A stretch of DNA of 64,000 nucleotides from Pseudomonadota bacterium. Its GTDB lineage: Bacteria; Pseudomonadota; Alphaproteobacteria; Rhizobiales; Beijerinckiaceae. Position 1 is the first letter of the stretch. Every line of letters starts with the position of its first letter. The notes beneath the pieces are model-generated. The model was not told the DNA's origin. It saw nothing but the letters and a program-made list of their open reading frames with translations, and searched no databases. Of the stretch, positions 3,458-48,385 are shown piece after piece. Location of the stretch: the NCBI GenBank assembly GCA_023450615.1, contig JAEXGT010000018.1, positions 8,808 to 72,807 on the forward strand, written 5' to 3'. The position numbers and the translations under genes were made by a program.

Positions 3458-3501
3458 GAGCGCTTCCTGATGTTATGAGTGTCCGATGTGTGGAAGCGGC
3501 A

Positions 3502-4548: not shown

Positions 4549-4661
4549 CGCTACACTCTTGAAGGCACAACAGAATATCAGCCCAATCATCCCTAAGGGA
4601 CGCTACGTAAATTTTAGTCTTGACTTACCTTGAAGCTGATTTCAACCTACATAAAACAAGA

Positions 4662-4675
4662 TGTAATCGATTACA
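4662..4675. promoter_or_regulatory. Candidate LacI-family operator (perfect 14-bp palindrome TGTAATCGATTACA)
   Basis: Read directly in the lacI / ABC-operon divergent intergenic region, 33 nt upstream of the SBP start codon. It matches the generic LacI-type half-site pattern TGnAAnCG|CGnTTnCA. Confidence 0.55.
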
Positions 4676-4707
4676 CCAAAACTTCACAACGCTTCTGGGA
4701 GGAAGCC

Positions 4708-5943
4708 ATGCGCCTGAAGACACGCATTTCTGCGTATACCTTTGCTGTTGCTATCGTCTCGAGCACGGGAGCTCTCGCTCAAAAGGCGGAAGTCCTTCAT
4801 TGGTGGACATCGGCCGGCGAGTCCGCCTCCGTGAAAGTGTTTGCCGATCAATATACGAAAGCCGGCGGCACATGGGTCGACAACGCCATCGCCGGTGGCC
4901 CGAACGCCCGCGCAGCAGGCCTCAACCGCATCGTCGGCGGCAACCCGCCGACCATGATGCAGTTCAACACCGGAAAGCAGTTCGACGAACTCGTCACCAA
5001 CGAGCTCGTGCGCGACGTGGAAAGCAAGGCGAAGGCCGGCAAGTGGCGGGACATCATGCCCAAGCCCATCGTCGATGCCACCGTCCGCGACGGCAAATTC
5101 TTCGCGGTGCCGATCAACATTCACGGCCAGAACTGGCTTTTCTATAATACCAAGCTCTTCAAGGACGCCGGTGTCGAGCCTCCGAAGACCTTCCCCGAGC
5201 TGATCGCAGCCGGTGAGAAGCTCAAGGCCAACGGCGTCATTCCGCTCGCCCTCGGCGGACAGCCCAACTGGGAACACAACCTCTTCCGTGCCGTGCTCGT
5301 CGGCAATGGCGGCGCGGATCTCTTCCGCAAGGTCTACGGCTCGCGGGATCAGGCCGCTGCCAAGAGTCCGGAGTTCAAGGAAGCGACGGAAATCTTCGGG
5401 AAGATGCGAGCCCTCGTCGATCCCGGCTCTCCCGGACGCAACTGGAATGACGCCGCCGCATTGGTCATCACCAACAAGGCAGCCATGCACTTCAATGGCG
5501 ATTGGGCCAAGGGCGAGTTCACCGCCGCAGGACAGACCGCAGGCAATGAATATGGCTGCACCATCGTCGGCAAGGACCCGAGGATCGTGATCGGCGGCGA
5601 CGTGTTCGTCTTCCCTGCGACCAAGGACAAGGACCAGCTGGCCGCACAGGAGAAGCTGGCCGATGTCCTCCTCGATCCGACGACGCAGCTCGAGTTCAAC
5701 AAGAAGAAAGGCTCGATCCCGGTCCGCCTGGATGTGGATGTCTCATCCATGGATGTCTGCGCGCAGAAATCCGCCGCCGTGCTGAAGAACCCGGAAAACC
5801 AGGTCGAAGCCATGGAGCTTCTGAGCACGCCGAACTTCTCAGGCGCCATGCAGGATGCGGTCACGCAATTCTGGAACAACCCGAACATGCCGACCGATGA
5901 GTTCGTGGCAAAAGTCGTGGCCGCCATGCAAAGTGCCAGCTGA
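4708..5943 (+). CDS. ABC sugar transporter, periplasmic substrate-binding protein
   Basis: Signal peptide MRLKTRISAYTFAVAIVSSTGALAQ. ATG at 4708 follows GGGAGGAAG. It is followed by two permeases and an ATPase. Confidence 0.85.
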   Translation: MRLKTRISAYTFAVAIVSSTGALAQKAEVLHWWTSAGESASVKVFADQYTKAGGTWVDNAIAGGPNARAAGLNRIVGGNPPTMMQFNTGKQFDELVTNELVRDVESKAKAGKWRDIMPKPIVDATVRDGKFFAVPINIHGQNWLFYNTKLFKDAGVEPPKTFPELIAAGEKLKANGVIPLALGGQPNWEHNLFRAVLVGNGGADLFRKVYGSRDQAAAKSPEFKEATEIFGKMRALVDPGSPGRNWNDAAALVITNKAAMHFNGDWAKGEFTAAGQTAGNEYGCTIVGKDPRIVIGGDVFVFPATKDKDQLAAQEKLADVLLDPTTQLEFNKKKGSIPVRLDVDVSSMDVCAQKSAAVLKNPENQVEAMELLSTPNFSGAMQDAVTQFWNNPNMPTDEFVAKVVAAMQSAS

Positions 5944-6016
5944 GATACCTTCATTCCAATGCGGTCCGGCGGAGCACTGCTCCCGCCGGACCGGCAAACT
6001 TTGAGGGATATTTCAG

Positions 6017-6955
6017 ATGGCTATCGTCACGATTCCGACTGCCGTTGCTAAGCCGGAGCGCCCTGTCAGAAGCCGCCGCCTCAACAGAGTCCGGCTGCCC
6101 GCGGCCCTTGCCCTGCTTCCCACGGCGCTCATCGTTCTCGTCGTCTATATCGGCTGCATGCTCTGGACGGTGCGGCTCTCGTTCACGAGCTCGACGCTGC
6201 TTCCCAAGCTCGATTGGGTCGGGTTTGCGCAATACAGCCGCCTTTTCATGAACGACCGTTTCCTGGTCTCCGCTGAAAACATCCTGATCTTCGGCGTTCT
6301 TTTCATCTCGGGCTGCCTCATCCTCGGCTTCCTGCTCGCGGTCTTCATCGATCAGAACATCCGCGCCGAAGGCGTCTTTCGCACGATCTTCCTTTATCCG
6401 TACTCGATGTCGTTCGTGGTGACCGGGGTCGCCTGGCAATGGTTTCTCAACCCGGGCCTCGGACTCCAAAAGCTCGTGCGGGACCTAGGCTTCGAGAGCT
6501 TCACCTTCGACTGGCTCGTGAACCAGCAGATGGCGATCTACACCATCGTCATTGCCGGGTTGTGGCACGGAGCTGGGCTGACCATGGCCATTCTCCTGGC
6601 GGGATTGCGCGGGATCGACTCCGAGCTTTGGAAGGCCTCCCGCATTGACGGAATCCCTGTCTGGCGCGTCTATCTCTCCATTGTTCTGCCGCTGCTTCGG
6701 CCCATGGTCGTGACCGCCACCGTGCTGCTCTCCGTCGGCGTCGTGAAGCTTTACGACCTCGTGGTCGCGATGACCCTCGGAGGCCCCGGCATTGCAACGG
6801 AAGTGCCTGCGAAATTCGTGATGGACCACCTGTTCGAGCGCAACAACATCGCCCTCGGAACGGCGGCGGCCACCGTCATGCTGATCACGGTCGTGGCGAT
6901 CATCGCTCCATGGGTCTACGCCAAGTACGTCCGGAAGCAAGGGAGGCCCGCATGA
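6017..6955 (+). CDS. Carbohydrate ABC transporter permease (MalF/UgpA-like)
   Basis: Multi-TM protein with the EAA-type loop WKASRIDGIPVWRVYLSIVLP. Its stop overlaps the next start (ATGA at 6952). Confidence 0.9.
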   Translation: MAIVTIPTAVAKPERPVRSRRLNRVRLPAALALLPTALIVLVVYIGCMLWTVRLSFTSSTLLPKLDWVGFAQYSRLFMNDRFLVSAENILIFGVLFISGCLILGFLLAVFIDQNIRAEGVFRTIFLYPYSMSFVVTGVAWQWFLNPGLGLQKLVRDLGFESFTFDWLVNQQMAIYTIVIAGLWHGAGLTMAILLAGLRGIDSELWKASRIDGIPVWRVYLSIVLPLLRPMVVTATVLLSVGVVKLYDLVVAMTLGGPGIATEVPAKFVMDHLFERNNIALGTAAATVMLITVVAIIAPWVYAKYVRKQGRPA

Positions 6956-7836
6956 CCAGCGTCATCCCGCAAGGCAGCCGCCCCAAGCGCCTCACCATCG
7001 GACGCGTCGGCATCTACGCCTTTCTGATCACGGCCGCCCTGTTCTTCACGTTGCCGCTCTGGATCATGATCGTCACCTCCCTCAAGCCGATGGAGGAGAT
7101 AAGGCTCGGGAACATCCTCGCGCTCCCTGCCAATCTCACGTTCGACGCGTGGATCAAGGCATGGTCGTCGGCCTGTACCGGGCTTGAATGCAACGGCATC
7201 AGTGTCGGTTTCTGGAACTCGGTCCGCATCCTGATCCCGTCCGTCATCCTGTCCATCGCGGCAGGCGCCATCAACGGTTATGCCTTGTCCTTCTGGAGGG
7301 TGAAGGGAGCCAATCTGATCTTCGGCATCCTGCTTATCGGCGCGTTCATCCCCTATCAGGTCTTCCTCTATCCCCTCGTACGCATCTTCTCCACGACCGG
7401 GATCTACAATTCGCTGCCCTGCATCATCATCGTGCACGTGATCTTCGGCCTGCCCACGATGACGCTGCTCTTCCGCAACTATTATGCCGGATTGCCCATC
7501 GAGCTGTTCAAGGCGGCGCGCATCGATGGCGGAGGCTTCTGGACCATCTTCTTCAGGGTGATGCTGCCCATGTCGACTCCGATGATCGTCGTGGCCGCGA
7601 TCCTTCAGGTCACTGGCATCTGGAACGACTTCATCTTCGGCCTGACTTTCGCAGGGCGGGAGAACCTGCCCATGACGGTGCAGCTCAACAACATCGTTCA
7701 CTCGACGCAGGGAGAGCGCGCCTACAACGTCGACATGGCCGCCACCATGCTCGCGGCGCTCGTTCCCCTCGTCGTCTATTTCGTTTCGGGCCGCTGGTTC
7801 GTCCGCGGCATCGCCGCAGGTGCAGTGAAAGGGTAA
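6952..7836 (+). CDS. Carbohydrate ABC transporter permease (MalG/UgpE-like)
   Basis: Multi-TM protein with FKAARIDGGGFWTIFFRVMLP. The ATG at 6952 overlaps the upstream stop. Confidence 0.9.
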   Translation: MTSVIPQGSRPKRLTIGRVGIYAFLITAALFFTLPLWIMIVTSLKPMEEIRLGNILALPANLTFDAWIKAWSSACTGLECNGISVGFWNSVRILIPSVILSIAAGAINGYALSFWRVKGANLIFGILLIGAFIPYQVFLYPLVRIFSTTGIYNSLPCIIIVHVIFGLPTMTLLFRNYYAGLPIELFKAARIDGGGFWTIFFRVMLPMSTPMIVVAAILQVTGIWNDFIFGLTFAGRENLPMTVQLNNIVHSTQGERAYNVDMAATMLAALVPLVVYFVSGRWFVRGIAAGAVKG

Positions 7837-7838
7837 AC

Positions 7839-8918
7839 ATGTCCGCCGTTTCCGTTCGCGATATCAGCGTAGCCTTCGAGGCGGTCCGCGTCTTCAACGG
7901 CCTCTCCCTCGATTTCGAAGCCGGCGAGTTCATCGTCCTGCTCGGTCCCTCGGGTTGCGGCAAGTCAACGCTGCTCAATGCGATTGCCGGTCTTCTCGAC
8001 ATTTCAGAGGGACAGATCTGGATCGGGGGGCAGAACGTCACCTGGGAGGAGCCGAAGGATCGCGGCATCGCCATGGTCTTCCAATCCTACGCGCTCTACC
8101 CGCGCATGAGCGTGCGCGAGAACATGTCCTTCGGGCTCAGGATGGCGAAGACCCCGAAGCCAGAGATCGAGAAGCGGGTCAAGCAGGCTGCGGAACTCCT
8201 GCAGATCACCCATCTCCTCGACCGCCGTCCCGATCAGTTGTCGGGCGGGCAACGTCAGCGCGTGGCGATCGGCCGAGCGCTCGTGCGCGATGCGGCGGTC
8301 TTCCTGTTCGACGAGCCGCTCTCCAATCTCGATGCGCAGCTTCGGAATGAATTGCGTGTCGAGATCAAGCGGCTGCACGCCCGTCTCGGCAAGACGACGA
8401 TGATCTACGTGACGCACGATCAGATCGAGGCCATGACATTGGCCGACCGGATCGTGGTCATGAAGGACCAGCAGATTCAGCAGGTCGGCTCTCCTTCGGA
8501 AATCTACCACCGCCCCGCCAACATGTTCGTGGCCGGGTTCGTCGGCTCGCCGCAGATGAACTTCATCAAGGGCAGGCTCGAGGATACCGGCAGCGGACCG
8601 ATCTTCGTGTCGGGCCATCGCCGCCTGCCGCTTCACGGCTACGCGTTCGCGGGCTCCGCGCCTTCCGGCCGTGATGTGGTGCTCGGTGTGCGGCCGGAGC
8701 ACCTGAAGATCGTCGAACTCGGCGCCTGGCCGGGATTCAGCGTCGATATCGTCGAGCCCATGGGAGCCGATACCGTGATCTGGTGCAGGGATGGCGACGG
8801 CGCGCTTCAGGTCCGCACCGGCGGGGATGTCAGATTGTCTGCGGGCGAGCGGCTCAATCTGGGCATCGACGCCGCGCAGGTCTCTCTCTTCGAGGCCGAT
8901 GGCGGCCAGCGTCTCTAG
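7839..8918 (+). CDS. ABC transporter ATP-binding protein (UgpC/MalK type)
   Basis: Walker A GPSGCGKST, signature LSGGQRQRVAIGRAL and Walker B FLFDEPLSNLD. ATG at 7839 lies 2 nt after the upstream stop. The 7188 extension in the ORF track overlaps the permease out of frame. Confidence 0.9.
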   Translation: MSAVSVRDISVAFEAVRVFNGLSLDFEAGEFIVLLGPSGCGKSTLLNAIAGLLDISEGQIWIGGQNVTWEEPKDRGIAMVFQSYALYPRMSVRENMSFGLRMAKTPKPEIEKRVKQAAELLQITHLLDRRPDQLSGGQRQRVAIGRALVRDAAVFLFDEPLSNLDAQLRNELRVEIKRLHARLGKTTMIYVTHDQIEAMTLADRIVVMKDQQIQQVGSPSEIYHRPANMFVAGFVGSPQMNFIKGRLEDTGSGPIFVSGHRRLPLHGYAFAGSAPSGRDVVLGVRPEHLKIVELGAWPGFSVDIVEPMGADTVIWCRDGDGALQVRTGGDVRLSAGERLNLGIDAAQVSLFEADGGQRL

Positions 8919-8985
8919 CCGCAGAGCCTTTGCGCTTGCCTGACGCGCAGACAAGCGCCCTCACCTCTCAAACCTTGAGGACTTC

Positions 8986-9753
8986 ATGAGCGTTTCAGAC
9001 TGCCTTTCGATTCAGCTTTACACCCTGCGCTCGATGGAAGACCTCGACCGCATTCTCGATACCGTGGCTCAGGCCGGCTACCGTTATGTGGAGACGGTCG
9101 GCTCCCATCTGGACGACGCCGGCGGCGTGCGCTCCAAACTGGATACGCGCGGATTGAAGGCTTCCTCCAGCCATGTCAGCCTGGCGGCGCTGCGGGAAAA
9201 GCCCGACGCCGTCATCGAGGCCTGCCGGGTTCTCGGCCTCACGGATATCTACATGCCTGCCGTCCCGCCCGAACAGCGCGACATGGCGGCGGATGGGTGG
9301 CGATCCCTCGGCCAGGAACTGGGCCGGATGGCTGAGCGCTTCCAGAAGGACGGCATCCGGCTCGGCTATCACAATCACCACTGGGAGATGATCCCGAAGG
9401 ACGGCGCCAAGACCGCGCTCGAACTCATTTTCGAGGAGGCGGAGGGAAGCCCCCTCGCCTGGGAGGTCGACGTGGCATGGCTCGTCCGTGGCAATGCTGA
9501 CCCCAAGACATGGATCAACCGCTACCGGAGCAAGATCACCGCAGCCCATGTCAAGGACATCGCCCCTGCGGGACAGAACGAAGATCAAGATGGCTGGGCG
9601 GATGTCGGCTCCGGCAGCCTCAACTGGCAGGATTTGTGGAAGATCTGCCGCGACGCCGGCGCCAAATGGATGGTCGTGGAACACGACAAGCCCACGGATC
9701 CCGCCAAGACAGCCCGCGCAAGCTTCGACTTCCTCCGCAAGATCGAGGGATAA
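8986..9753 (+). CDS. Sugar phosphate isomerase/epimerase (xylose-isomerase-like TIM barrel) family protein
   Basis: 255 aa. The content (IQLYTLRS..., YVETVG..., HNHHWE, WMVVEHD) is typical of the AP-endonuclease-2/xylose-isomerase-like TIM-barrel family. A GAGGA RBS is present. Confidence 0.75.
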   Translation: MSVSDCLSIQLYTLRSMEDLDRILDTVAQAGYRYVETVGSHLDDAGGVRSKLDTRGLKASSSHVSLAALREKPDAVIEACRVLGLTDIYMPAVPPEQRDMAADGWRSLGQELGRMAERFQKDGIRLGYHNHHWEMIPKDGAKTALELIFEEAEGSPLAWEVDVAWLVRGNADPKTWINRYRSKITAAHVKDIAPAGQNEDQDGWADVGSGSLNWQDLWKICRDAGAKWMVVEHDKPTDPAKTARASFDFLRKIEG

Positions 9754-9758
9754 TCGTT

Positions 9759-10934
9759 ATGGAAACCCTGAACGTCGGCATCATCGGATGCGGCAACATC
9801 TCGGGCATTTACCTTCAGAACATCCCGGCCTATCGGGGACTGACTCTGCGCGCCTGCGCCGATATGAGGCCGGAAATCGCGCAGGCCCAGGCCAGCCGCC
9901 ATGGGATCGAAGCCCTCACCGTCGATCAGCTCCTGGCTCGCGAGGACATCGACCTCGTTGTGAATCTCACGATTCCCAGCGCCCATTTCGGCGTGTCCCT
10001 CGCGGCACTCAGCGCAGGCAAGCACGTCTTCTCGGAAAAGCCTCTCGCGGTGGATTTCGAGCAAGGCCGCAAACTGGTGGATGAAGCCGAAGCACGCGGG
10101 CTGTTGCTGGGCTGCGCGCCGGACACCTTCCTCGGAGCCGGTGGGCGCCTCGCCCGCCAACTCGTGGACGATGGAGCCGTCGGGCGGATCCTTTCGGGGT
10201 CGGCATTCCTCATGTCCCATGGCATGGAGCACTGGCACCCGGACCCGGAGTTCTTCTTCAAGCCGGGCGGCGGCCCCATCCTCGATATGGCGCCCTATTA
10301 TCTCAGCACGCTCGTCAATCTCATCGGCCCCGTGCAGCGCGTGTTCTCCATGGCGAATATCGGATTTCCCGAACGCATCGTGACGGCAGATTCCCCCAAA
10401 AAGGGCCAGCGGATCACGGTGGAGACGCCGACAAGCGTCATGGCCCTTCTGGAATTCGCCTCCGGAGCCCAAGTCACTTTCTGCATGAGCTGGGATGTAT
10501 GGAAGCACGGTCACCCGGCAATTGAGCTCTATGGGACTGAAGGCTCCCTGCGCGTGCCCGATCCGAACTTCTTTGGCGGTCAGGTCGAGACGACTGAACG
10601 CGGTGGGGATTGGCAGTTGAAGGATTCGAGCGAGATGCCCCTCGGCGCTCCCAATTGGCGGTCTCCGAATTGGGCGCCCGATATGCCATCACGCGCCAAT
10701 TACCGCGCGCTCGGCCTTGCCGATCTTGCCAGCGCCGCCCTCAACGGCACGCCTCACCGTTCGACAGGCCGGCTGGCGCTTCATGTCCTTGAAGTCATGC
10801 ACAGGATCCTGGAAGGCGCCGGCACCGGACAGGCGATGCCGATCACGACCCTGCTGGAGCGCCCGGCGCCTCTCTCCGACCAGGATGCCGCTGCGCTTTG
10901 GCAAGGCCCTCCTGAGACCGCAACGGCGGCCTAG
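9759..10934 (+). CDS. Gfo/Idh/MocA family oxidoreductase
   Basis: METLNVGIIGCGNISGIYL Rossmann N-terminus and an HVFSEKP motif. ATG at 9759 lies 5 nt after the upstream stop. The 9510 extension is out of context. Confidence 0.85.
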   Translation: METLNVGIIGCGNISGIYLQNIPAYRGLTLRACADMRPEIAQAQASRHGIEALTVDQLLAREDIDLVVNLTIPSAHFGVSLAALSAGKHVFSEKPLAVDFEQGRKLVDEAEARGLLLGCAPDTFLGAGGRLARQLVDDGAVGRILSGSAFLMSHGMEHWHPDPEFFFKPGGGPILDMAPYYLSTLVNLIGPVQRVFSMANIGFPERIVTADSPKKGQRITVETPTSVMALLEFASGAQVTFCMSWDVWKHGHPAIELYGTEGSLRVPDPNFFGGQVETTERGGDWQLKDSSEMPLGAPNWRSPNWAPDMPSRANYRALGLADLASAALNGTPHRSTGRLALHVLEVMHRILEGAGTGQAMPITTLLERPAPLSDQDAAALWQGPPETATAA

Positions 10935-11031: not shown

Positions 11032-12123
11032 TCATTTGCCCGATTTCGGAAAGCGGGCCAAAAGGCTGGTGAGCTGGGCCTGATGACTTGTGCCTGTTTT
11101 CGCGAATATCGACTTCAAGTGATAGCGAACCGTTTCAGGACTGACCCGATTCTCGGCTGCGATCTGCTGCGTATCAGCCCCCTTCAGAAGAGCTGCGGCC
11201 ACTCGCGCTTCAGCGGATGTCAGCCCAAAAACCTTCTGCAGAATATCCAGGGCAACCGGTCTGTGCGCGCTGAGATCCCTGATCAACAGGATTGCACGCG
11301 TGCCCTGAAAGACATCATTCGCATGCCGAACAACCGGATACGTGCTCACGATCAGCGGGATATTGTTGATCCGGTGTAGCAAGATCGATGCCGGCGCGGT
11401 CGACTTAATGTCGTAGGCGGGGTGGGTGCTCGCTGTGATGAGTTCCTGAAGCGCCTTGTTGGCCTCGCGTTGTTGAGAGCGGAGCTTGGATGAGATGACT
11501 TGCAGATCTTCTCCAAGCAATTCCTCCGCCTTCTTATTCATCCGGGTGACGCGCCCGAGCCGATCGAGCAGCATGGCTCCGCAATCGAATCGCTCAACGC
11601 TGTCGATCAACCCTTCGGCGAAGGCCGCGCGGCTGCTCACCGCAAGGCGGGCTGCTCTCCGCACATCTCCAAGGTCCTGCTGGATCCTCAATGCCGTGCC
11701 GTCGGAGAACGGCTCTTTATCGATCTTTCGGTGAATGGAAAGCGTCGTCAGCCCCCCACCGACATCGCCTAGAATGCTGCCGGCAAACCAGCCGAGCCCC
11801 AGCGGGCGCAGAAACTCAGCATAGAGCGGAAGATGCCCGATCTCATCATGAGTAAAGAGATCCTGATCCGTTACGACTTCCTTGCCCTTGCGGACCACCG
11901 GGACGCCGCGCGCTGCGCGTATATCGCGCTTGTACCACTCTTCACGGACAAAGCGCGCACACATCTCTCCGAGACTTTCGGACGCAACAACGCCCCCGAC
12001 ACAGTCTGGATAGGTTGAAATGACGACACCGTCTGCAGACCAAGCAGAACTCGCGATATTAAGTGCATTCGTCCAAAGTTCAGGGAGAATAGCAGCTTCG
12101 TAAAATGCTTCCGTAGCGAGCAT
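11032..12123 (-). CDS. LuxR-family (HTH, GerE-type) transcriptional regulator with a long non-receiver N-terminal domain
   Basis: C-terminal LTSAEARVAAALLKGADTQQIAAENRVSPETVRYHLKSIFAKTG is a LuxR/FixJ-type HTH. The N-terminal ~290 aa carry no REC motifs. Confidence 0.8.
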   Translation of the reverse strand: MLATEAFYEAAILPELWTNALNIASSAWSADGVVISTYPDCVGGVVASESLGEMCARFVREEWYKRDIRAARGVPVVRKGKEVVTDQDLFTHDEIGHLPLYAEFLRPLGLGWFAGSILGDVGGGLTTLSIHRKIDKEPFSDGTALRIQQDLGDVRRAARLAVSSRAAFAEGLIDSVERFDCGAMLLDRLGRVTRMNKKAEELLGEDLQVISSKLRSQQREANKALQELITASTHPAYDIKSTAPASILLHRINNIPLIVSTYPVVRHANDVFQGTRAILLIRDLSAHRPVALDILQKVFGLTSAEARVAAALLKGADTQQIAAENRVSPETVRYHLKSIFAKTGTSHQAQLTSLLARFPKSGK

Positions 12124-12278: not shown

Positions 12279-12318
12279 CATTTGGGTAGGTCTCCTTGCG
12301 GCAGTCACTACCCAAATG
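12279..12318. promoter_or_regulatory. Perfect 11-bp inverted repeat (CATTTGGGTAG-N18-CTACCCAAATG) in the leader/promoter of the giant gene
   Basis: Read directly. The arms are at 12279-12289 and 12308-12318, in a relatively A/T-rich 376-bp divergent intergenic region. Confidence 0.4.
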
Positions 12319-12499
12319 GTCAGTGATGCCCCGAAATTTCCATGCTTCCTTCCCGCCACGAACCACAAGCACCAAGCCCTTCCCGCGTGGTTTTGAAGCG
12401 GCAGGGCATCTTCGCAGAAGCCAGAGGCAACGGCGCAGCATCGCGCATGCCGGCACATGGAACAGGGCCTGACGCAAGTTCAGGGCCGAGGGGGACAGA

Positions 12500-15400
12500 A
12501 TGGCAAGCCATCCAAATTTCGCGACGTTTTCAATATCTTACGATTCCGAGAAGGACTCTTGGACGATCCTGAACGGCGACGTGTCGTATGATGGCGCCAA
12601 CACGGGGCGCATTGTCATCGGCTCGGTCGGCTATGTGCTCGCTGGCGGCGATGCACATTCCACTCTGACGGAGGCCCTTGCTACAGCCAGCGACGGCGAC
12701 ATCATCATGGTCGCGCCCGGCACGTATGAGGAAACGCTCACCATCACCAAGGACGTCACTATCCGAAGCCTTGACGGCGAAGTTGCTACGACCGTCATCG
12801 AAGGTGGCATCCACATTCAGGCGGATGGCGTCACCATCAGCGGCCTGACCATCGAAGGCGGCTCGTCCTTCTTCGGCGCTGGCCCGGCCGGCATTCTCGT
12901 CCAGGCCAATGGCGTGACCCTGCAGAACAACGCGCTTTATGGCTCCGCCACCAGCATCAACGATGCGGCGCGCGGAATCCTCGTGGCTGTCGAGACCGGT
13001 GAAGACCTAATCATCTCCAACAACACTGTGATCGGTTGGGCCACAGGCGCTTATCTCAACCCCGGCGCATCCGGAATCGTCGAGGGCAACACCTTCAAGA
13101 GCAATGACGTAGGCGTGTCGATGGACGCTCCTGTCGGAATCTCTGTCACCGACAACACTTTCGATGGCAACTTCATCGAGCAAATCGGTGCCGGCGTCCC
13201 CGGCAATACTCTCGATCTATCCGAGATCGTGGCGGACAACACCTTTAAGAACACCCCTGAAGGTGAGCAGCAGGTCTTCATCTATGGTGACGCAGACAGC
13301 GAGACCATCGTCGGTACGGTCGCGGCCGATAAGATCATTGGCGGAGGCGGCATCGATACGGTGATCTACGGCGAAGATTCCATGATCGAGTTCGTGGACG
13401 GTGTGTGGACGGTCACTACCGCTGACGGCATCGTCGACACCCTGACCGGTGTGGAGCGCGTCACCATCGGCGATCATACCTACATCCTCGTGGATGACGA
13501 TGGCGAAGGCTTCACCTCGATCCAGGATGCTGTGAACGCCACCAATGCGGGCGATACGATCCTGGTTGCGGATGGCACCTATGCAGGAACGGTTGTCGTC
13601 AACAAAGCTGTGACCATCCAGGGCATTGAGGGCGAGGCCGAGAATACGATTGTCACCGGCGGCATCCACATCAACGCGGACGGCGTCACCATCGACGGCC
13701 TTCACATTTCGGGCGCCGGCACTATCCTCGGCGAGAAGGCTGGCGTTTACGTCAGCGCTGCCAATGTCACCATCGTCAACAGCATTCTGACCGGTCCCGA
13801 GAGCGCCACGAATGAGCGCGGCGTCCTGGCGGGCGGCTCTGCCGACGGCCTCACCATTTCCAACAACACGATGGAAGGTTGGGCCACAGGTGTATACCTT
13901 AACCCCGGCGCCACCGGCACCGTCGAAGGCAATACCTTCACCGAGAACAATGTCGGCGTGTCGATGGACGATCCGGAAGGCCTCACCGTCACCGGAAACA
14001 CCTTTGAGAATAACAAGACCGAGCAGGTGGGCGTCGGTGCTTCGGGTGCGGAACTCGACCTGTCGCAGATCGTAGCCGACAATGAATTCATCGGTTCCAC
14101 CGATCAGGTTGTTGTTTGGGGTGCCAATGGCGACCAGACGATCATCGGTTCGGAAGCTGCCGATGTGATTAAGGGATCGGGCGGCATCGACACGGTGATC
14201 TACGGCGAAGGCGCCACGATCGAGTTCGTGGACGGTGTATGGACGGTCACTACCGCTGACGGCATCGTCGATACCCTGACCGGTGTGGAGCGCGTCACCA
14301 TCGGTGATCAGACCTACATCCTCGTGGATGACGATGGCGAAGGCTTCACCTCGATCCAGGATGCCGTGAACGCCGCCCATGACGGCGACACGATCCTGGT
14401 TGCGGACGGCACGTATGAGGAAACGCTCATCGTTAACAAGGCTGTGACCATCACAAGCCTTGAAGGTGAGGTTTCCAATACCGTTGTCGAGGGCGGCATC
14501 CACATTCAGGCGGATGGCGTCACTATCAATGGCCTGACCATCGAGGGCGGCACGTCCTTCTTCGGCGCTGGCCCGGCCGGCATTCTCGTCCAGGCCAATG
14601 GCGTGACCCTGCAGAACAACGTGCTCTATGGCGCTGGCGATAGCATTGCTACCTCAGCTCGCGGCGTGCTCGTGGCTGTCGAGACCGGCAACGATCTCAC
14701 TCTCTCCAACAACCACATGGAAGGCTGGGCCACGGGTGCCTACCTCAACCCCGGCGCGACCGGCACAGTTACCGGCAACACCTTCGCCCAGAACGATGTT
14801 GGCTTGTCCATGGACGATCCGAGCGATCTGTCCGTGACCGGAAATACTTTCGACGGCAACTTCCTCGAGCAGATCGGCGCCGGCGTCCCCGGCAATACTC
14901 TCGATCTGTCCGAGATCGTGGCGGGCAACCGCTTCGAGCACACCCCTGCAGGTAAGCAGCAGGTCTTCATCTATGGTGACGCAGACAGCGAAACCATCGT
15001 CGGTACGGTCGCGGCCGATAAGATCATTGGCGGAGGCGGCATTGACACGGTGATCTACGGCGAAGGCGCCACGATCGAGTTCGTGGACGATGTATGGACG
15101 ATTACCACGGCTGACGGCATCGTCGATACCCTGACCGGGGTGGAGCGTGTCACCATCGGGAGCCAGACCTACATCCTCGTGGACGATGACGGCGTAGCCC
15201 TCGACTCGATCCAGGATGCCGTTGATCTCGCCAGCGACGGCGACATCATCATGGTCGCGGCCGGCTCCTACAGCGAGATGGTTACCGTCGACAAGGACGT
15301 CACCATTCTTGGCGTCAATGCAGGTGTCGCAGGATACGGGCGCGTGACCTCTGGCGGCTCGAACCCGGAGACCTATATCGACGGCGGCATCCATATCCTT

Positions 15401-17533
15401 AAGGACGGCGTCACGCTCGACGGGCTTGCGATTATGGGTGGTGACATGGGCGGCGAAGCTGCCGGTGTGTTCATCCAAGCTGCTAATGCGACCATCAGCA
15501 ACAGCATTCTCATGGGGCAATCCTCGGGTGGACCTGCCCGTGGCATCGTGACGGACGCTTCGGCTGAAGGCCTCGTCATCTCCGACAACGCCATAGCGGG
15601 CTGGGCCACGGGCGCGTACCTCAATCCCGGCGCCACCGGCACCGTGACGGGCAACGTCCTCATCGGTAATAACGTCGGCATCTCCATCGACGATCCGGAC
15701 GGTCTCTCTGTCAGCGGCAACGTCCTGTTCGGAAACGCCTTCGAGAATATCGGCCTGGGCATCTATGCGGGTACTGCTGACGCCAGCACGATCATTGGCG
15801 CCAACACGATCCTGTCGAATGCTCCTGGAGGCGATGTGAGCATCTATGGCCTCGGATCAGGGCATACTATCCAGGGCACAGCCTATGCGGACACGTTCCA
15901 TGGAAGCGACGAAGCCGACATCTTCGTGGGCGGAGCCGGCAATGACGTGATCAATGGCGGCGACGGCGAAGACACGGCGGTGTTCAGCGGCAATCGTTCC
16001 GACTACTCCGTATCGGTCGGTCAGAACGACAAAGTGACGATCACCGACCTCCGTCAGAATGGCGGAACCGGCACCGACATTCTCTCGGGCGTCGAGTCCT
16101 TCCAATTCGCCAACGGAAAGATCAGCTACGACACGCTCCTCAACAATGAAACCCCGACTGCCGTTTATCTGTCTGGCGATCAGAATGTTGCGGAGAATGC
16201 AGCCAATGGCACCATCATTGGGACGCTTTCTGCGGATGACGAGAATGAAGACGACAGCTTCGTCTATGAACTCGTTGACAACGCAGGTGGTCGCTTCGCC
16301 ATATCGGACGGCAAGCTCGTCGTGGCCAATGGCACCCTTCTCGACTACGAGAAGGGCGATAGCCATGAAGTGAAAGTGAAGGTGACAGATCTTTCCGGGG
16401 CCTCCTTCGTACAGAGCCTGTCGATCTACGTGGATGACGTGAATGAGGGCCCGACTCCCGTCAGGCTTCTTCAGCAGGTGGTTACCGCCGCTGAGAACGG
16501 CGCGGCCAAGAAAGTAGCGGACATCGACGTTACAGATGATGCGCTCGGCATCAACGAACTGTCGCTGGTCGGCGCTGACGCTGCCGCCTTCGAAATCCGC
16601 GGCACTGAGTTGTGGTTCAGAGGTAACGCCAACTTCGAGGCCAAAAGTTCCTACGCGGTTGCTGTCAAGGCGACCGATAAGAATGGTGCCGGCTCCGATA
16701 TTTCCGAGACTTTCACTCTGAAGATCACGGATGTGAACGAAGCTCCGACCGACATCGCCGTCAGCGGCGGCTCGGTGCTCGAGAACTCGGCTGTCGGCAC
16801 GCTTGTGGCCTCGCTCTCCGGAGTAGACCAGGACGCGGGCGAAACGTTCACCTTCGCGCTTCTTGACAACGCAGGTGGTCGTTTCGCCATCAGCGGCGAC
16901 AAGATCCTGGTGGCTGACTCGTTCAAGCTGGACTACGAACAGGCTACGAGCCACCAAGTCGTCGTTCGGGTTACCGACAAAAATGGCGCTACCTACGACG
17001 AGGCCGTTACTCTCTCCGTCGGAGACGTTCGGGTCGAGAACATCAGTGGCTCGTCCGGCTCTGACAAGGTCGTCGGCGGCTCGGGTAACGACAAGATGTC
17101 CGGCGGCTCGGGCAACGACATCCTTGATGGCGGAGCTGGCAAGGACGTGCTGAATGGCGGCTCTGGCAACGACCGCCTTATCGGCGGTGCAGGCCAGGAT
17201 ACGCTGACCGGCGGCTCAGGTAAGGACGTGTTCGTCTTCGGCCCCAAGAGCACAGGCTCTTCCAAGAAGACAGCCGACTACATCACGGACTTCTCCGGCC
17301 GTGGCGGCGACAAGATCGACCTGAGCGCAATCGACGCCAATGTCTCGAAGAAGGGCAACCAGGCCTTCTCTTTCATCGGCACTGGCGACTTCACGAAGGC
17401 CGGCCAAGTCCGTTACGAGAAGGATGGGAAGGACACCTACGTCTATCTCAACACTGACAACGACAAGGCTGCCGAAGCCGTGATTAGGCTCAAGGGCGCG
17501 ATGGACCTGCAGAAGAGCTGGTTCGTGCTCTAA
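12500..17533 (+). CDS. Giant secreted-type repeat protein: 4 right-handed beta-helix modules, 3 cadherin-like domains, RTX Ca-binding repeats and a T1SS-type C-terminus
   Basis: 1677 aa with no signal peptide. DGDxIxVAxGTYxExxxVxKxVTI and GWATGAYLNPGATGTVxGN blocks recur four times. DVNEGPT/DVNEAPT linkers separate three cadherin-like units. GGSGNDxxxGGxGxD nonapeptides precede an acidic/hydrophobic end, KSWFVL. Confidence 0.9.
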   Translation: MASHPNFATFSISYDSEKDSWTILNGDVSYDGANTGRIVIGSVGYVLAGGDAHSTLTEALATASDGDIIMVAPGTYEETLTITKDVTIRSLDGEVATTVIEGGIHIQADGVTISGLTIEGGSSFFGAGPAGILVQANGVTLQNNALYGSATSINDAARGILVAVETGEDLIISNNTVIGWATGAYLNPGASGIVEGNTFKSNDVGVSMDAPVGISVTDNTFDGNFIEQIGAGVPGNTLDLSEIVADNTFKNTPEGEQQVFIYGDADSETIVGTVAADKIIGGGGIDTVIYGEDSMIEFVDGVWTVTTADGIVDTLTGVERVTIGDHTYILVDDDGEGFTSIQDAVNATNAGDTILVADGTYAGTVVVNKAVTIQGIEGEAENTIVTGGIHINADGVTIDGLHISGAGTILGEKAGVYVSAANVTIVNSILTGPESATNERGVLAGGSADGLTISNNTMEGWATGVYLNPGATGTVEGNTFTENNVGVSMDDPEGLTVTGNTFENNKTEQVGVGASGAELDLSQIVADNEFIGSTDQVVVWGANGDQTIIGSEAADVIKGSGGIDTVIYGEGATIEFVDGVWTVTTADGIVDTLTGVERVTIGDQTYILVDDDGEGFTSIQDAVNAAHDGDTILVADGTYEETLIVNKAVTITSLEGEVSNTVVEGGIHIQADGVTINGLTIEGGTSFFGAGPAGILVQANGVTLQNNVLYGAGDSIATSARGVLVAVETGNDLTLSNNHMEGWATGAYLNPGATGTVTGNTFAQNDVGLSMDDPSDLSVTGNTFDGNFLEQIGAGVPGNTLDLSEIVAGNRFEHTPAGKQQVFIYGDADSETIVGTVAADKIIGGGGIDTVIYGEGATIEFVDDVWTITTADGIVDTLTGVERVTIGSQTYILVDDDGVALDSIQDAVDLASDGDIIMVAAGSYSEMVTVDKDVTILGVNAGVAGYGRVTSGGSNPETYIDGGIHILKDGVTLDGLAIMGGDMGGEAAGVFIQAANATISNSILMGQSSGGPARGIVTDASAEGLVISDNAIAGWATGAYLNPGATGTVTGNVLIGNNVGISIDDPDGLSVSGNVLFGNAFENIGLGIYAGTADASTIIGANTILSNAPGGDVSIYGLGSGHTIQGTAYADTFHGSDEADIFVGGAGNDVINGGDGEDTAVFSGNRSDYSVSVGQNDKVTITDLRQNGGTGTDILSGVESFQFANGKISYDTLLNNETPTAVYLSGDQNVAENAANGTIIGTLSADDENEDDSFVYELVDNAGGRFAISDGKLVVANGTLLDYEKGDSHEVKVKVTDLSGASFVQSLSIYVDDVNEGPTPVRLLQQVVTAAENGAAKKVADIDVTDDALGINELSLVGADAAAFEIRGTELWFRGNANFEAKSSYAVAVKATDKNGAGSDISETFTLKITDVNEAPTDIAVSGGSVLENSAVGTLVASLSGVDQDAGETFTFALLDNAGGRFAISGDKILVADSFKLDYEQATSHQVVVRVTDKNGATYDEAVTLSVGDVRVENISGSSGSDKVVGGSGNDKMSGGSGNDILDGGAGKDVLNGGSGNDRLIGGAGQDTLTGGSGKDVFVFGPKSTGSSKKTADYITDFSGRGGDKIDLSAIDANVSKKGNQAFSFIGTGDFTKAGQVRYEKDGKDTYVYLNTDNDKAAEAVIRLKGAMDLQKSWFVL
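12640..15700 (+). repeat. Nested in-frame tandem duplications inside the giant gene (834/855-bp modules; 1689-bp two-module super-repeat)
   Basis: ATCGAGTTCGTGGACG recurs at 13385, 14219 and 15074. CCACATTCAGGCGGATGGCGTCAC recurs at 12811 and 14500 (offset 1689). GGCAACTTC..GGCGTCCCCGGCAATACTCTCGATCT recurs at 13166 and 14855 (offset 1689). Confidence 0.85.
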
Positions 17534-17551: not shown

Positions 17552-17620
17552 CCCCGCGACGCCCCGGCGTCGCGGGGAAACTACCATCATCCCCTGCGGC
17601 ATCTGTCGCAGGGGATGTTC
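17552..17620. terminator. Two GC-rich hairpins between convergent genes (bidirectional terminator region)
   Basis: CCCCGCGACGCC / GGCGTCGCGGGG at about 17552-17577. CATCCCCTGCG / CGCAGGGGATG at 17588-17617, followed by TTCATTT. Confidence 0.55.
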
Positions 17621-48276: not shown

Positions 48277-48385
48277 GCCTAAAGCAGGGGACGTGGAATC
48301 GAACTCACGTCCACTGCTTTAGGCTTTTGTTTTGGCGCATCTTGTCACACAAAACCGGTGCCCACTTTTGCGCTCGATGCTCTAG
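48277..48385. repeat. Intergenic repeat, copy B, extended form (18-bp split hairpin plus the 72-bp core)
   Basis: GCCTAAAGCAG / CTGCTTTAGGC (48277-87 / 48314-24) with inner GGACGTG / CACGTCC, followed by TTTTGTTTT. The core 48314-48385 is 69/72 identical to 32975-33046. Confidence 0.85.

What the first reader, a model, noticed from the sequence alone, without database searches (positions are those of the whole stretch)
12500..17533. 1677-aa beta-helix / cadherin / RTX giant protein with no secretion genes nearby
The architecture read from the translation is as follows. Four beta-helix modules of about 280 aa resemble polysaccharide lyase/NosD/CASH-type carbohydrate-binding or -modifying folds. 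Each is followed by a conserved about-50-aa unit, DTVIYGExATIEFVDGVWTVTTADGIVDTLTGVERVTIG. Next come a short RTX-like block and three cadherin-like domains with DVNE(G/A)PT linkers. The protein ends with a run of GGxGNDxxx nonapeptides and a non-cleaved C-terminal secretion-type tail. It has no N-terminal signal peptide, so type I secretion is implied, yet the 64-kb window shows no T1SS ABC, MFP or TolC genes. The only neighbour that looks dedicated is a divergent LuxR-type regulator. Four tandem putative glycan-active modules on an adhesin-like stalk is an unusual combination; it could be a surface adhesin that also binds or degrades polysaccharide, for example host or biofilm matrix.
Basis: partly seen in the sequence, partly recalled or inferred. 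Interest (0 to 1): 0.65.

Follow-up and report, generated by a model that had tools for sequence, protein, structure and literature searches.

The report
Giant secreted beta-helix RTX protein
A Microvirga-like soil bacterium encodes a 1677-residue calcium-binding protein built from four sugar-enzyme-like beta-helix modules, three cadherin-like domains and a type I secretion tail; it is real, but it is an ordinary member of a large, uncharacterised family of secreted surface or matrix proteins.

Summary
ORF 12500-17533(+) encodes 1677 aa with four diverged ~280-aa modules, each a ~50-aa beta domain plus a NosD/CASH-type right-handed beta-helix. These are followed by a short RTX block, three cadherin-like domains, seven C-terminal RTX nonapeptides and a type-I-secretion C-terminal domain. 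There is no signal peptide, no Cys, and 236 acidic against 69 basic residues. No T1SS gene lies within about 84 kb.

The module is common: 296 50%-identity clusters at E<=1e-30, in proteins of up to 7073 aa with up to 16 matched stretches. Distant T1SS genes are normal, as for Rhizobium PrsDE substrates. A homologue in Algihabitans albus sits next to a complete OEP/ABC/MFP operon. No known lyase, hydrolase or epimerase signature was found. There is only a family-conserved groove (R, W, Y, N, D, E) at the position of the GH120 active site, with Asn in place of the nucleophile.

The divergent regulator is a dedicated partner. It has two PAS/GAF-like sensor domains and a LuxR HTH. It sits next to an RTX exoprotein gene, with a near-invariant ~45-nt upstream element, in 10 loci.

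Best reading: a T1SS-exported, Ca2+-stiffened matrix or adhesin protein that binds polysaccharide and may modify it. It is a new member of a known kind.

The parts
11032..12123 (-). Divergent regulator, 363 aa: two PAS/GAF-like sensor domains, a long helix and a C-terminal LuxR/GerE HTH
   Evidence: Pfam GerE at aa 301-353. AF2 model has pLDDT 89.4. Foldseek matches bacteriophytochrome PAS-GAF, DhaR(N), SdiA/RhlR/QscR/TraR and VqmA. Orthologues are 55-82% identical and always sit next to an RTX exoprotein gene.
12279..12318 (.). Inverted repeat CATTTGGGTAG / CTACCCAAATG with an 18-nt spacer in the shared intergenic region
   Evidence: Read from the sequence. M. guangxiensis has CATATGGGTAG / CTACCCATATG, a matched change in both arms. 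The 3' half, ACT.CCCA.ATGGG.A.TGA, is conserved in 7 loci.
12361..12408 (+). Near-invariant cis element AACCACA..GCCC..CCCGCGTGG..GAAGCGGCAGGGCA, ending 92 nt upstream of the ATG
   Evidence: Alignments A3 and A4. In a metagenome scan, 5 of 8 exact matches lie in regulator/RTX intergenic regions and 3 are a chance coding match. No Rfam match. No covariation beyond one paired change in L019.
12488..12495 (+). Ribosome-binding site GAGGGGGA
   Evidence: Read from the sequence.
12500..17533 (+). Gene for the 1677-aa beta-helix / cadherin / RTX exoprotein
   Evidence: The exact protein is on record on a 116-kb metagenome contig.
12500..13345 (+). Module 1 (aa 1-282): degenerate small beta domain plus NosD/CASH-type beta-helix
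   Evidence: Alignment A1. Pfam Beta_helix, NosD and DUF1565.
13346..14179 (+). Module 2 (aa 283-560): RTX-like junction, small beta domain and beta-helix
14180..15034 (+). Module 3 (aa 561-845), 65% identical to module 1; this is the module that was modelled
   Evidence: AF2 model of aa 561-897 has pLDDT 94.7 and pTM 0.92. Foldseek returns only generic right-handed beta-helix polysaccharide enzymes.
15035..15880 (+). Module 4 (aa 846-1127), pairs with module 2 in an ABAB pattern
   Evidence: (repeat families D3 and D6).
15881..16135 (+). Internal RTX block (nonapeptides at aa 1144, 1153 and 1188) plus the canonical small beta domain
   Evidence: HemolysinCabind E 6.9e-9. Weak HCBP_related hit, E 0.0075, below the Pfam cut-off. 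Nonapeptide positions.
16136..16450 (+). Cadherin-like domain 1
   Evidence: PF00028, 33.3 bits against a cut-off of 28.8.
16451..16780 (+). Cadherin-like domain 2 (divergent)
   Evidence: No Pfam hit. Pairwise similarity to domains 1 and 3, E 6e-5 and 7e-7. Absent from the M. guangxiensis orthologue.
16781..17047 (+). Cadherin-like domain 3
   Evidence: PF00028, 29.1 bits.
17048..17236 (+). Seven consecutive GGxGxDxUx calcium-binding nonapeptides (aa 1517-1579)
   Evidence: Pattern search. HemolysinCabind.
17237..17530 (+). C-terminal secretion domain ending ...LQKSWFVL
   Evidence: TIGR03661 T1SS C-terminal target domain, above its cut-off. Peptidase_M10_C E 2e-14. The tail is conserved in P0002-P0004.
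17588..17617 (+). Terminator-like hairpin with a 13-bp stem, 55 nt after the stop codon

Best explanation
**What it is.** The gene encodes a type-I-secreted, calcium-dependent extracellular protein of the RTX family. It belongs to a Microvirga-like alphaproteobacterium.

**Export (inferred).** The unfolded, very acidic, Cys-free chain is probably recognised through its C-terminal domain. It would then be exported C-terminus first by an ABC/MFP/OEP system encoded elsewhere in the genome.

**Folding (inferred).** Outside the cell, Ca2+ should fold three kinds of element:
- the seven C-terminal nonapeptides
- the internal RTX block
- the two RTX-like nonapeptides at each module junction

The result would be a stiff rod: four units of small beta domain plus beta-helix, carried on three cadherin-like domains.

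**Likely function (inferred).** Each beta-helix has the same family-conserved groove on its PB1 sheet. In module 3 the residues are R721, W743, Y748, N750, D772 and E790, and they are identical in all four modules. The most likely role is multivalent binding of a polysaccharide, either the cell's own exopolysaccharide or a plant or fungal wall polymer. That would make the protein a matrix or adhesion factor. Catalysis is possible but not shown.

**Regulation (inferred).** Expression is probably controlled by the divergent one-component regulator (two PAS/GAF-like domains plus a LuxR HTH), acting through conserved elements in the shared 376-bp intergenic region.

**Shown versus inferred.** Shown here: the architecture, the fold, the family distribution, the conserved regulator pairing and the T1SS linkage in a homologue. 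Everything else above is inference.
For: **Type I secretion features**
- RTX repeats, a TIGR03661 match and a Peptidase_M10_C-like tail.
- No signal peptide or TM segment, 0 Cys, 236 acidic against 69 basic residues.
- Homologue P0019 of Algihabitans albus carries the same modules (three matches of 109-152 bits). It is followed directly by OEP, C39-ABC and AprE-type MFP genes.

**Beta-helix fold**
- The AF2 model has pLDDT 94.7 and pTM 0.92, with both flanking small domains placed confidently.
- Every Foldseek hit is a polysaccharide-active beta-helix: PL6, PL9, CE8, GH28, AlgE4 or RbmB, or a phage tailspike or tail fibre.

**Conserved groove**
- Family conservation of the groove residues is shown. 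They are invariant in all four window modules.
- The module profile matches GH120 XylC at E 1.5e-9.
- In the printed HMMER alignment (made with the four-module profile A1, whole-sequence E 0.0033), N750 aligns with the nucleophile Asp382 and D772 with the acid/base Glu405 (PMC3507262).

**Regulator pairing**
- The regulator sits next to an RTX exoprotein gene in 10 loci, in two different chromosomal neighbourhoods.
- It has a sensor-type fold.
- A conserved cis element lies upstream of the RTX gene.
Against: - No T1SS genes were found in about 84 kb around the gene, and the rest of the genome could not be searched.
- No carbohydrate-binding or catalytic family is matched beyond generic Beta_helix and NosD.
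- Foldseek scores are weak (E 3e-4 to 1e-2, TM at most 0.46), so the fold class is the only structural inference available.
- NosD, the closest named family, is not a glycan protein.
- The groove was deduced from sequence periodicity and secondary structure, not from model coordinates.
- There are no expression or secretion data.
Confidence: 0.55

Rival explanations
1. The four beta-helix modules are enzymes. They would form a new family of Ca2+-dependent polysaccharide lyases, epimerases or hydrolases. The protein would then be a multi-catalytic secreted enzyme that remodels exopolysaccharide or plant wall polymers, comparable to AlgE1 and AlgE3 with their two A-modules.
For: - All structural neighbours are polysaccharide-active beta-helix enzymes.
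- The conserved R/N/D/E patch lies on PB1 at the position of the GH120 catalytic pair.
- An Arg together with acidic residues is the chemistry used by beta-helix lyases and epimerases (PMC4444821).
- All four modules keep every one of these residues.
- AlgE epimerases show that beta-helix catalytic modules can be joined to RTX modules.
Against: - No PL, GH or CE Pfam family is matched at E<=1.
- The AlgE DPH motif is absent.
- The GH120 nucleophile position holds Asn in 83% of family modules.
- The helix is short, about 230 aa against 385 aa for an AlgE A-module.
- In related Microvirga loci the same slot holds cadherin/Big_9 RTX proteins with no beta-helix. That fits an interchangeable adhesin better than an enzyme.
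Confidence: 0.22
2. It is a purely structural surface protein, an S-layer or surface-fibril subunit. The beta-helices and cadherin-like domains would only provide a rigid Ca2+-dependent scaffold, with no specific glycan ligand.
For: - RTX S-layer proteins secreted by T1SS are known, for example Caulobacter RsaA and cyanobacterial examples (PMC3034196).
- NosD-type beta-helix repeats occur in haloarchaeal and methanogen repeat proteins.
- The model suggests a rigid rod (pTM 0.92).
Against: - A conserved polar and aromatic surface patch kept in all modules, and across a family with only ~34% mean column identity, is not expected for a mere spacer.
- Module number varies between 2, 3 and 4 in close relatives, which is unusual for a lattice-forming subunit.
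- The gene is tightly paired with a sensor regulator rather than showing a constitutive, high-expression context.
Confidence: 0.13
3. It is a cell-anchored LapA/MpIBP-type biofilm adhesin, held in the outer-membrane T1SS pore by an N-terminal retention module and released by a LapG-type protease.
For: Large size, a cadherin/Ig-like stalk, RTX repeats and Ca2+ dependence resemble Bap/Lap-type adhesins (PMC12153261).
Against: - The N-terminus is simply a degenerate copy of the small beta domain.
- There is no TAAG-type LapG site.
- No LapG- or LapD-like genes occur in about 84 kb.
Confidence: 0.05
4. The four-module array is an assembly artefact of a repeat.
For: - The source is a short-read metagenome contig at coverage ~6.5.
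- Another metagenome contig breaks inside the gene.
- Logan contigs of other runs are fragmented here.
Against: - The modules are only 60-85% identical in DNA.
- The reading frame is intact over 5 kb.
- The cultured M. guangxiensis genome has an orthologue with four modules in the same order.
- Independent contigs cross all three module junctions.
Confidence: 0.02

Closest known systems
AlgE1-7 / PsmE secreted mannuronan C-5 epimerases (Azotobacter, Pseudomonas syringae)
   Same: They are modular secreted proteins made of right-handed beta-helix modules alternating with Ca2+-binding RTX modules. AlgE1 and AlgE3 carry two beta-helix modules, and the molecule is rod-shaped (PMC4444821). AlgE4 A-module appears among the Foldseek hits.
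   Different: The window modules are about 230 aa, not 385 aa, and lack the DPH catalytic motif. Sequence similarity is marginal. The small beta domain and the cadherin-like domains have no AlgE counterpart, and there are four modules rather than one or two.
Rhizobium leguminosarum PrsDE type I substrates: pRL90140 (parallel beta-helix repeat + RTX), RL2961 and pRL100309 (cadherin-like + RTX), Rap CHDL lectins, PlyA/PlyB glycanases
   Same: These come from the same bacterial order. They are RTX or Ca2+-binding exoproteins without signal peptides, shown to need prsD for secretion. Their genes are mostly not next to prsDE, and they act on or bind exopolysaccharide and shape the biofilm matrix (PMC2275737; abstracts of PMC5061743 and PMC9298526).
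   Different: In Rhizobium these elements occur on separate, smaller proteins. tblastn of a window module against PLSDB plasmids found no rhizobial hit, so the relation is one of kind, not demonstrated homology.
NosD (periplasmic beta-helix protein of N2O reductase maturation; PDB 7o0y)
   Same: It is among the better sequence matches to the beta-helix among named families and solved structures (E 2.6e-7; PF05048 E 4e-36 and TIGR04247).
   Different: TIGR04247 scores 68.9 bits per module and 197 in total, against a cut-off of 300. There are no nos genes nearby. The window protein is extracellular, multi-module and RTX-linked. NosD is not known to handle glycans (own knowledge).
GH120 beta-xylosidase XylC (PDB 3vst)
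   Same: The module profile matches its beta-helix at E 1.5e-9. The Asn ladder aligns, and the family-conserved N750 and D772 fall on catalytic Asp382 and Glu405 (PMC3507262).
   Different: The nucleophile is replaced by Asn. The GH120 beta-sandwich insertion carrying Trp113 is absent, and XylC is a much longer helix that forms a tetramer.
RTX S-layer proteins and LapA/MpIBP/BapP-type RTX adhesins
   Same: They are large T1SS substrates with Ca2+-dependent repetitive extender domains and roles at the cell surface or in biofilm (PMC3034196; PMC12153261).
   Different: The window protein has no N-terminal retention module, no LapG site and no adjacent T1SS. Its passenger region is four beta-helices rather than Ig-like repeats.

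Membership tests
RTX proteins / type I secretion substrates | Tandem GGxGxDxUx Ca2+-binding nonapeptides close to the C-terminus | tested here: met
   Seven consecutive repeats at aa 1517-1579. PF00353 E 1.6e-29 over 6 stretches.
RTX proteins / type I secretion substrates | Uncleaved C-terminal secretion domain and no N-terminal signal peptide | tested here: met
   TIGR03661 19.2 bits against a cut-off of 17.6. Peptidase_M10_C E 2e-14. The N-terminus, MASHPNFATFSISYDSEKDS, has no basic or hydrophobic leader, and maximum KD19 is 1.21. This is sequence-level evidence only.
RTX proteins / type I secretion substrates | Acidic protein with few or no cysteines | tested here: met
   236 D+E, 69 K+R, 0 Cys.
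RTX proteins / type I secretion substrates | A cognate ABC exporter, MFP and OEP in the genome | tested here: inconclusive
   None found in the 64-kb window or 10 kb on either side. Homologue P0019 is adjacent to OEP, C39-ABC and MFP genes.
RTX proteins / type I secretion substrates | Demonstrated T1SS-dependent export | not testable with these tools
   Needs secretome analysis of wild type against a T1SS mutant.
NosD (TIGR04247, N2O reductase maturation) | Score above the family cut-off, and a nosZ/nosF/nosY/nosL context | tested here: not met
   197 bits summed over four modules and 68.9 bits for one module, against a cut-off of 300. No nos genes among the neighbours.
AlgE-type mannuronan C-5 epimerases | A-module of ~385 aa with the catalytic Tyr/Asp/His/Asp site (YG[FI]DPH[DE] motif; own knowledge) | tested here: not met
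   No DPH anywhere in the protein. PDB sequence matches to epimerases are weak and largely fall in the RTX-contaminated part of the profile. Foldseek to 2pyg gives E 2.5e-3 and TM 0.26.
GH120 glycoside hydrolases | Catalytic Asp nucleophile and Glu acid/base (Asp382 and Glu405 of XylC) | tested here: not met
   The aligned residues are Asn (83% of family modules) and Asp. The beta-sandwich insertion is absent.
Polysaccharide lyases PL1 / PL6 / PL9 and pectin methylesterases CE8 | Match to the family profile or close structural superposition including catalytic residues | tested here: inconclusive
   No Pfam lyase or esterase family at E<=1 for a single module. Only 'faint' precomputed Pel9A-like and Pectinesterase hits. 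Foldseek E 5e-4 to 1e-2 with TM at most 0.46. Sequence similarity is confined to the N-terminal cap.
Cadherin domain (PF00028) | Profile score above the gathering threshold, with Ca2+-binding DxNE linker motifs | tested here: met
   Domains 1 and 3 score 33.3 and 29.1 bits against 28.8. Domain 2 is recognised only by internal similarity. DVNE at aa 1313 and 1411.
LapA-like (BTLCP-linked) RTX adhesins | N-terminal retention module with a LapG cleavage site, and lapG/lapD genes (own knowledge) | tested here: not met
   The N-terminus is a degenerate small beta domain. No TAAG motif. No such genes in about 84 kb.
Rap / CHDL lectins of Rhizobium | Ra/CHDL domain that binds acidic EPS in a Ca2+-dependent way | not tested
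The comparison rests on the literature only.

The most novel reading that the evidence does not exclude
The ~280-aa unit (small beta domain plus short beta-helix with the conserved R/W/Y/N/D/E groove) is the catalytic module of an undescribed family of Ca2+-dependent polysaccharide lyases or epimerases. Proteins like this one would then be multi-site secreted enzymes that remodel exopolysaccharide. In Microvirga they would be switched on by a ligand-sensing PAS/GAF-LuxR regulator through an unusually invariant ~45-nt upstream element, which might act as an RNA structure.
Probability: 0.15. Interest if true: 0.6.

Novelty: new member of a known kind. Interest (0 to 1): 0.3.

Why it matters
Giant RTX exoproteins carrying NosD-type beta-helix modules are abundant in soil and aquatic alphaproteobacteria and cyanobacteria: 296 clusters at E<=1e-30 and 3870 at E<=1e-10. 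I found no report of one being characterised, and databases label them only 'NosD domain-containing' or 'beta-helix repeat' protein.

- **A testable family.** A defined, well-modelled module with a short list of conserved groove residues makes this family open to experiment.
- **A usable organism.** A cultured organism, Microvirga guangxiensis CGMCC 1.7666, carries the orthologue.
- **Why the ligand matters.** If the modules bind or modify exopolysaccharide, this would add a widespread class of matrix-organising proteins to the Rap/Ply picture known from Rhizobium.
- **A regulatory handle.** The regulator, cis element and RTX gene form a cassette whose passenger region is swapped between species. 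That gives a simple system for studying how adhesin repertoires are regulated and exchanged.

For the scan itself, the main lesson is negative. Absence of local T1SS genes and multi-module beta-helix architecture are not anomalies.

Tried and rejected
- **Self-BLAST.** A self-BLAST script printed no off-diagonal hits. It was replaced by the repeat finder and an alignment of the modules.
- **Homology to pRL90140.** tblastn of module 3 against PLSDB plasmids gave only a Roseivivax hit and archaeal hits, nothing rhizobial. The Rhizobium comparison is therefore analogy only.
- **Genome scan.** The genome-contig scan with the module alignment used patterns that were too specific. It returned only M. 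guangxiensis, so no taxonomic survey or T1SS co-occurrence count could be made from it.
- **Contig look-up.** The look-up of window ORF 811-1863 was not on record. The GH43 gene was used instead.
- **Family memberships.** NosD, AlgE, GH120 and LapA-type memberships were all tested and rejected (see the membership table).
- **PDB search with A2.** The profile was contaminated by RTX repeats in its C-terminal extension, so the top hits were CyaA and lipases. It was repeated with A1.
- **Intergenic element as a known RNA.** No Rfam match.
- **Intergenic element as a sigma-54 promoter.** The spacing TGG-N9-GCA fits, but M. flocculans has TGA in place of TGG. Rejected.
- **Intergenic element as a structured RNA.** RNAalifold finds a GCCC/GGGC plus CCGC/GCGG stem, but every pair is invariant. 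One paired A-T to G-C change in L019 supports an AACCAC/GTGGTT pairing or palindrome. This is too little to decide between RNA and operator.
- **Sequencing runs.** The runs found hold only fragmentary contigs. They support the module junctions but give no expression evidence.
Full report
**Observation**

ORF 12500-17533(+) is the longest in the window and starts at the first possible start codon. A GAGGGGGA ribosome-binding site lies 4 nt upstream. Codon-position GC of 0.60/0.44/0.74 is typical of real genes here.

Pfam finds NosD four times (E 4.3e-36), HemolysinCabind six times (1.6e-29), Cadherin twice (1.1e-16) and DUF1565. NCBIfam adds several matches:
- a sub-threshold NosD_copper_fam hit (197 bits against a cut-off of 300)
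- serralysin-type C-terminal similarity
- para_beta_helix
- a 'bluetail' domain hit
- the T1SS C-terminal target domain TIGR03661, above its cut-off

The DNA holds four copies of an ~850-nt unit at only 60-85% identity. As protein, the four units (aa 1-282, 283-560, 561-845, 846-1127) align with 44-65% identity to the first. Modules 1 and 3 are closest to each other, and modules 2 and 4 pair up, which points to duplication of a two-module block.

Each unit consists of three parts:
- one or two RTX-like nonapeptides
- a ~50-aa all-beta domain
- a ~230-aa beta-helix

The very N-terminus is a degenerate copy of the small domain.

After module 4 come a short RTX block and a canonical version of the small domain, which gives a weak, sub-threshold HCBP_related hit. 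Then follow three cadherin-like domains. Two exceed the Pfam cut-off, and the middle one is recognisable only through its neighbours. The protein ends with seven consecutive nonapeptides and a 98-aa tail.

The protein has no Cys, 236 acidic against 69 basic residues, and no hydrophobic segment. A 13-bp terminator-like hairpin follows the stop codon.

**Is it an assembly artefact?**

This is unlikely, for four reasons:
- The copies are diverged.
- The reading frame is intact over 5 kb.
- The orthologue in the cultured Microvirga guangxiensis genome also has four modules.
- Short contigs from four other public runs cross each of the three module junctions.

The same runs hint at strain variants in the cadherin region: a joint from 16146 to 16733, and loose ends at 16146. 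This fits the M. guangxiensis protein, which lacks the middle cadherin-like domain.

**Source and surroundings**

The exact protein is on record on a 116-kb ENA metagenome contig. The best homologue, at 65% identity, is a 'NosD domain-containing protein / Type I secretion C-terminal target domain' protein of Microvirga guangxiensis.

Synteny with that genome runs as follows: GH43, LacI, sugar ABC importer, xylose-isomerase-like TIM barrel, GFO/IDH/MocA oxidoreductase, GerE regulator, giant gene, then TRAP transporter and a 551-561-aa RTX protein. In the window, a ~27-kb block sits between the giant gene and the TRAP genes. It contains:
- opine-oxidase-like genes
- an ABC importer
- a PAS hybrid kinase
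- a che cluster

No ABC exporter, MFP or OEP gene occurs in the window, or in 10 kb beyond either end.

**How unusual is the architecture?**

It is not unusual. An HMM of the four window modules finds full-length copies of the same unit (small domain plus helix) in about 50 segments of the first 120 homologues. Most of these are 1,300-2,900-aa proteins from alphaproteobacteria, and one is from Microcystis. They usually carry HemolysinCabind and sometimes Cadherin.

Against 1.84 billion cluster representatives, the profile finds 296 proteins at E<=1e-30, 3870 at <=1e-10 and about 30,000 at <=1e-3. These include proteins of up to 7073 aa with up to 16 matched stretches. Close relatives carry 4, 3 or 2 modules (P0002, P0003, P0004). 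Four tandem modules on a cadherin/RTX stalk is thus one arrangement among many in a large, unstudied family.

**Secretion**

All sequence hallmarks of a type I substrate are present. Two further lines bear on the missing T1SS genes.

- *Linkage in the family.* P0019 of Algihabitans albus carries three modules scoring 109-152 bits against the window HMM. It is followed immediately by genes for an OEP, a C39-domain ABC exporter and an AprE-type MFP. Another member, P0006, has none nearby, like the window.
- *Precedent in the same order.* In Rhizobium leguminosarum one system, PrsDE, exports many substrates, including:
  - the RTX protein pRL90140, described as a 'parallel beta-helix repeat protein'
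  - the cadherin-like RTX proteins RL2961 and pRL100309
  - PlyA, PlyB and the Rap proteins

  Most of their genes are not next to prsDE (PMC2275737; see also PMC3034196).

The absence of local T1SS genes is therefore ordinary. I put T1SS export at about 0.85-0.9.

**What do the beta-helix modules do?**

An AF2 model of aa 561-897 was built from a 41-sequence alignment of modules. It has pLDDT 94.7 and pTM 0.92. It shows a small six-stranded domain, a capped right-handed beta-helix and the next small domain in a fixed arrangement, which suggests a continuous rod.

Foldseek against the PDB returns only generic beta-helix proteins:
- GH28
- PL6 and PL9 lyases and other alginate lyases
- CE8 pectin methylesterases
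- the AlgE4 A-module
- RbmB
- phage tailspikes and tail fibres

The scores are weak (E 3e-4 to 1e-2, TM at most 0.46). Sequence searches of the PDB hit NosD (2.6e-7), GH120 xylosidase XylC (1.5e-9), and the N-terminal caps of PL6 lyases and pectinesterases. A single module matches only Beta_helix, NosD and DUF1565 in Pfam at E<=1. No known catalytic family is matched.

The family does conserve, beyond the Asn ladder and glycines, a set of surface-type residues: K647, R721, W743, Y748, N750, D772 and E790 (module 3 numbering). They are conserved in 73-90% of 41 diverse modules and are identical in all four window modules. From the model's strand pattern, they fall on or beside the PB1 strands of three successive coils.

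In the HMMER alignment to XylC:
- the Asn ladders coincide
- N750 aligns with the nucleophile Asp382
- D772 aligns with the acid/base Glu405
- R721 lies among the residues that line the -1 subsite

The residue roles come from PMC3507262. This places the conserved patch where beta-helix enzymes bind substrate. The nucleophile is not conserved, however, and the AlgE DPH motif is absent.

I conclude that a glycan-binding groove is likely and that catalysis is open. NosD membership is rejected on score and context.

**The regulator**

The divergent 363-aa gene (11032-12123) has a C-terminal GerE/LuxR HTH and an N-terminal 290 aa with no Pfam match. Its relatives are almost confined to Microvirga and soil metagenomes.

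An AF2 model (pLDDT 89.4) shows two alpha/beta sensor domains joined by a long helix, then the HTH. Foldseek matches PAS-GAF phytochrome cores, DhaR(N), the LuxR-type receptors SdiA, RhlR, QscR and TraR, and VqmA. It is thus a ligand-sensing one-component regulator.

The orthologue (55-82% identity) lies divergently next to an RTX exoprotein gene in every locus examined:
- the window
- M. guangxiensis
- two metagenome loci in a different chromosomal neighbourhood, where the partner is a 3- or 2-module beta-helix protein
- M. lupini, Microvirga sp. VF16 and M. flocculans, where the same slot holds a 931-938-aa Cadherin_4/5 + Big_9 + RTX protein without beta-helices
- three further metagenome fragments

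The window protein's C-terminal third is 36-42% identical to those proteins. The locus is therefore a regulator-plus-RTX-exoprotein cassette in which the passenger region is exchanged.

**Intergenic region**

Alignments of 4 and 7 loci show two conserved features:
- An inverted repeat at 12279-12318, with a matched change in both arms in M. guangxiensis.
- A nearly invariant ~45-nt element at 12361-12408. It ends 92 nt before the ATG here, and 80-110 nt before it in the other loci.

A metagenome-wide exact search for the element found it in five regulator/RTX intergenic regions and in three copies of an unrelated coding sequence. It has no Rfam match. A sigma-54 reading fails in one species. 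RNAalifold finds an invariant stem without covariation. One paired change in L019 is compatible with either a palindromic operator or RNA pairing. Its nature is unresolved.

**Comparison with known systems**

In how it probably works, the protein is closest to two groups.

- *AlgE/PsmE mannuronan epimerases.* These have beta-helix modules alternating with RTX modules. They are rod-shaped and secreted, and they act on the producer's own polysaccharide (PMC4444821).
- *Rhizobial PrsDE substrates.* These are discussed under Secretion above.

It is not a member of the AlgE, NosD, GH120 or LapA-type families, because defining features were tested and not met. It is a member of the RTX/T1SS-substrate class by every sequence criterion.

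**Verdict**

The finding is real and accurately described, but its two claimed oddities are ordinary. It is a new, uncharacterised member of a known kind.

The most useful results are these:
- a defined module with a candidate groove
- a cultured organism that carries the orthologue
- a dedicated sensor regulator with a strongly conserved cis element

Interest is 0.3. The most novel reading still open is a new family of Ca2+-dependent polysaccharide-modifying modules (probability about 0.15).

Noticed in passing
window 12361-12408 and 12279-12318; also L001, L006, L007, L009-L011, L014, L015, L019: A nearly invariant ~45-nt element and an upstream inverted repeat lie between the regulator gene and the RTX gene in 10 loci, although the encoded proteins are only ~55% identical. 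There is no Rfam match. Whether it is an operator, a promoter or a 5'-leader RNA structure is undecided.
   Followed up: partly
window 48382-50067 (-): A second RTX protein of 561 aa with 11 HemolysinCabind stretches. It is 81% identical to a M. guangxiensis protein at the syntenic position. Its tail, ...DDFIVI, is the type seen on the cadherin-type RTX proteins next to the regulator in other Microvirga, and differs from the giant protein's ...SWFVL tail. This suggests two classes of C-terminal signal.
   Followed up: partly
window ~17600-44700: A ~27-kb block is absent from the syntenic M. guangxiensis locus. It holds DAO/OCD/DAO/Pyr_redox opine-oxidase-like genes, IclR, an enoyl-CoA hydratase, a polyamine-type ABC importer, an AMP-binding enzyme, a PAS hybrid histidine kinase and a cheX-A-R-B-W-MCP cluster. 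In M. guangxiensis the TRAP transporter directly follows the giant gene.
   Followed up: no
window 16146-16733: Contigs of other public runs show a joint that skips 586 nt, and loose ends at 16146 that continue with a different cadherin-like start. This suggests strain variants with fewer or different cadherin-like domains. Support is thin: 32 nt on the short side of the joint.
   Followed up: no
L009, L010, L011 (M. lupini, Microvirga sp. VF16, M. flocculans); L006, L007: In other Microvirga genomes the slot divergent from the orthologous regulator holds a 931-938-aa Cadherin_4/5 + Big_9 + RTX protein instead of a beta-helix protein. In L006, L007 and M. lupini the regulator is flanked by RTX genes on both sides.
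   Followed up: partly
P0091 (2520 aa): A homologue combines this beta-helix module with a PF05860 two-partner-secretion (haemagglutination activity) domain. The module is therefore also carried by type Vb secretion substrates.
   Followed up: no
L005 1-958: In another metagenome (ERZ28598342) the contig ends 702 codons into the orthologous giant gene. This is a typical short-read break in a repeat-rich gene.
   Followed up: no
window 1850-10934: Upstream lies a conserved cluster: GH43, LacI, a sugar ABC importer (SBP, two permeases, MalK-like ATPase), a xylose-isomerase-like TIM barrel and a GFO/IDH/MocA oxidoreductase. It suggests use of plant pentose or oligosaccharide. It adjoins the giant gene in both the window and M. 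guangxiensis, but not in the L006/L007 type of locus, so the linkage is probably incidental.
   Followed up: partly
window 60221-60305 (+) and 62043-62948 (+): tRNA-Leu(GAG) is the only Rfam/ARAGORN hit in the window. A GH25 lysozyme-family gene lies nearby.
   Followed up: no
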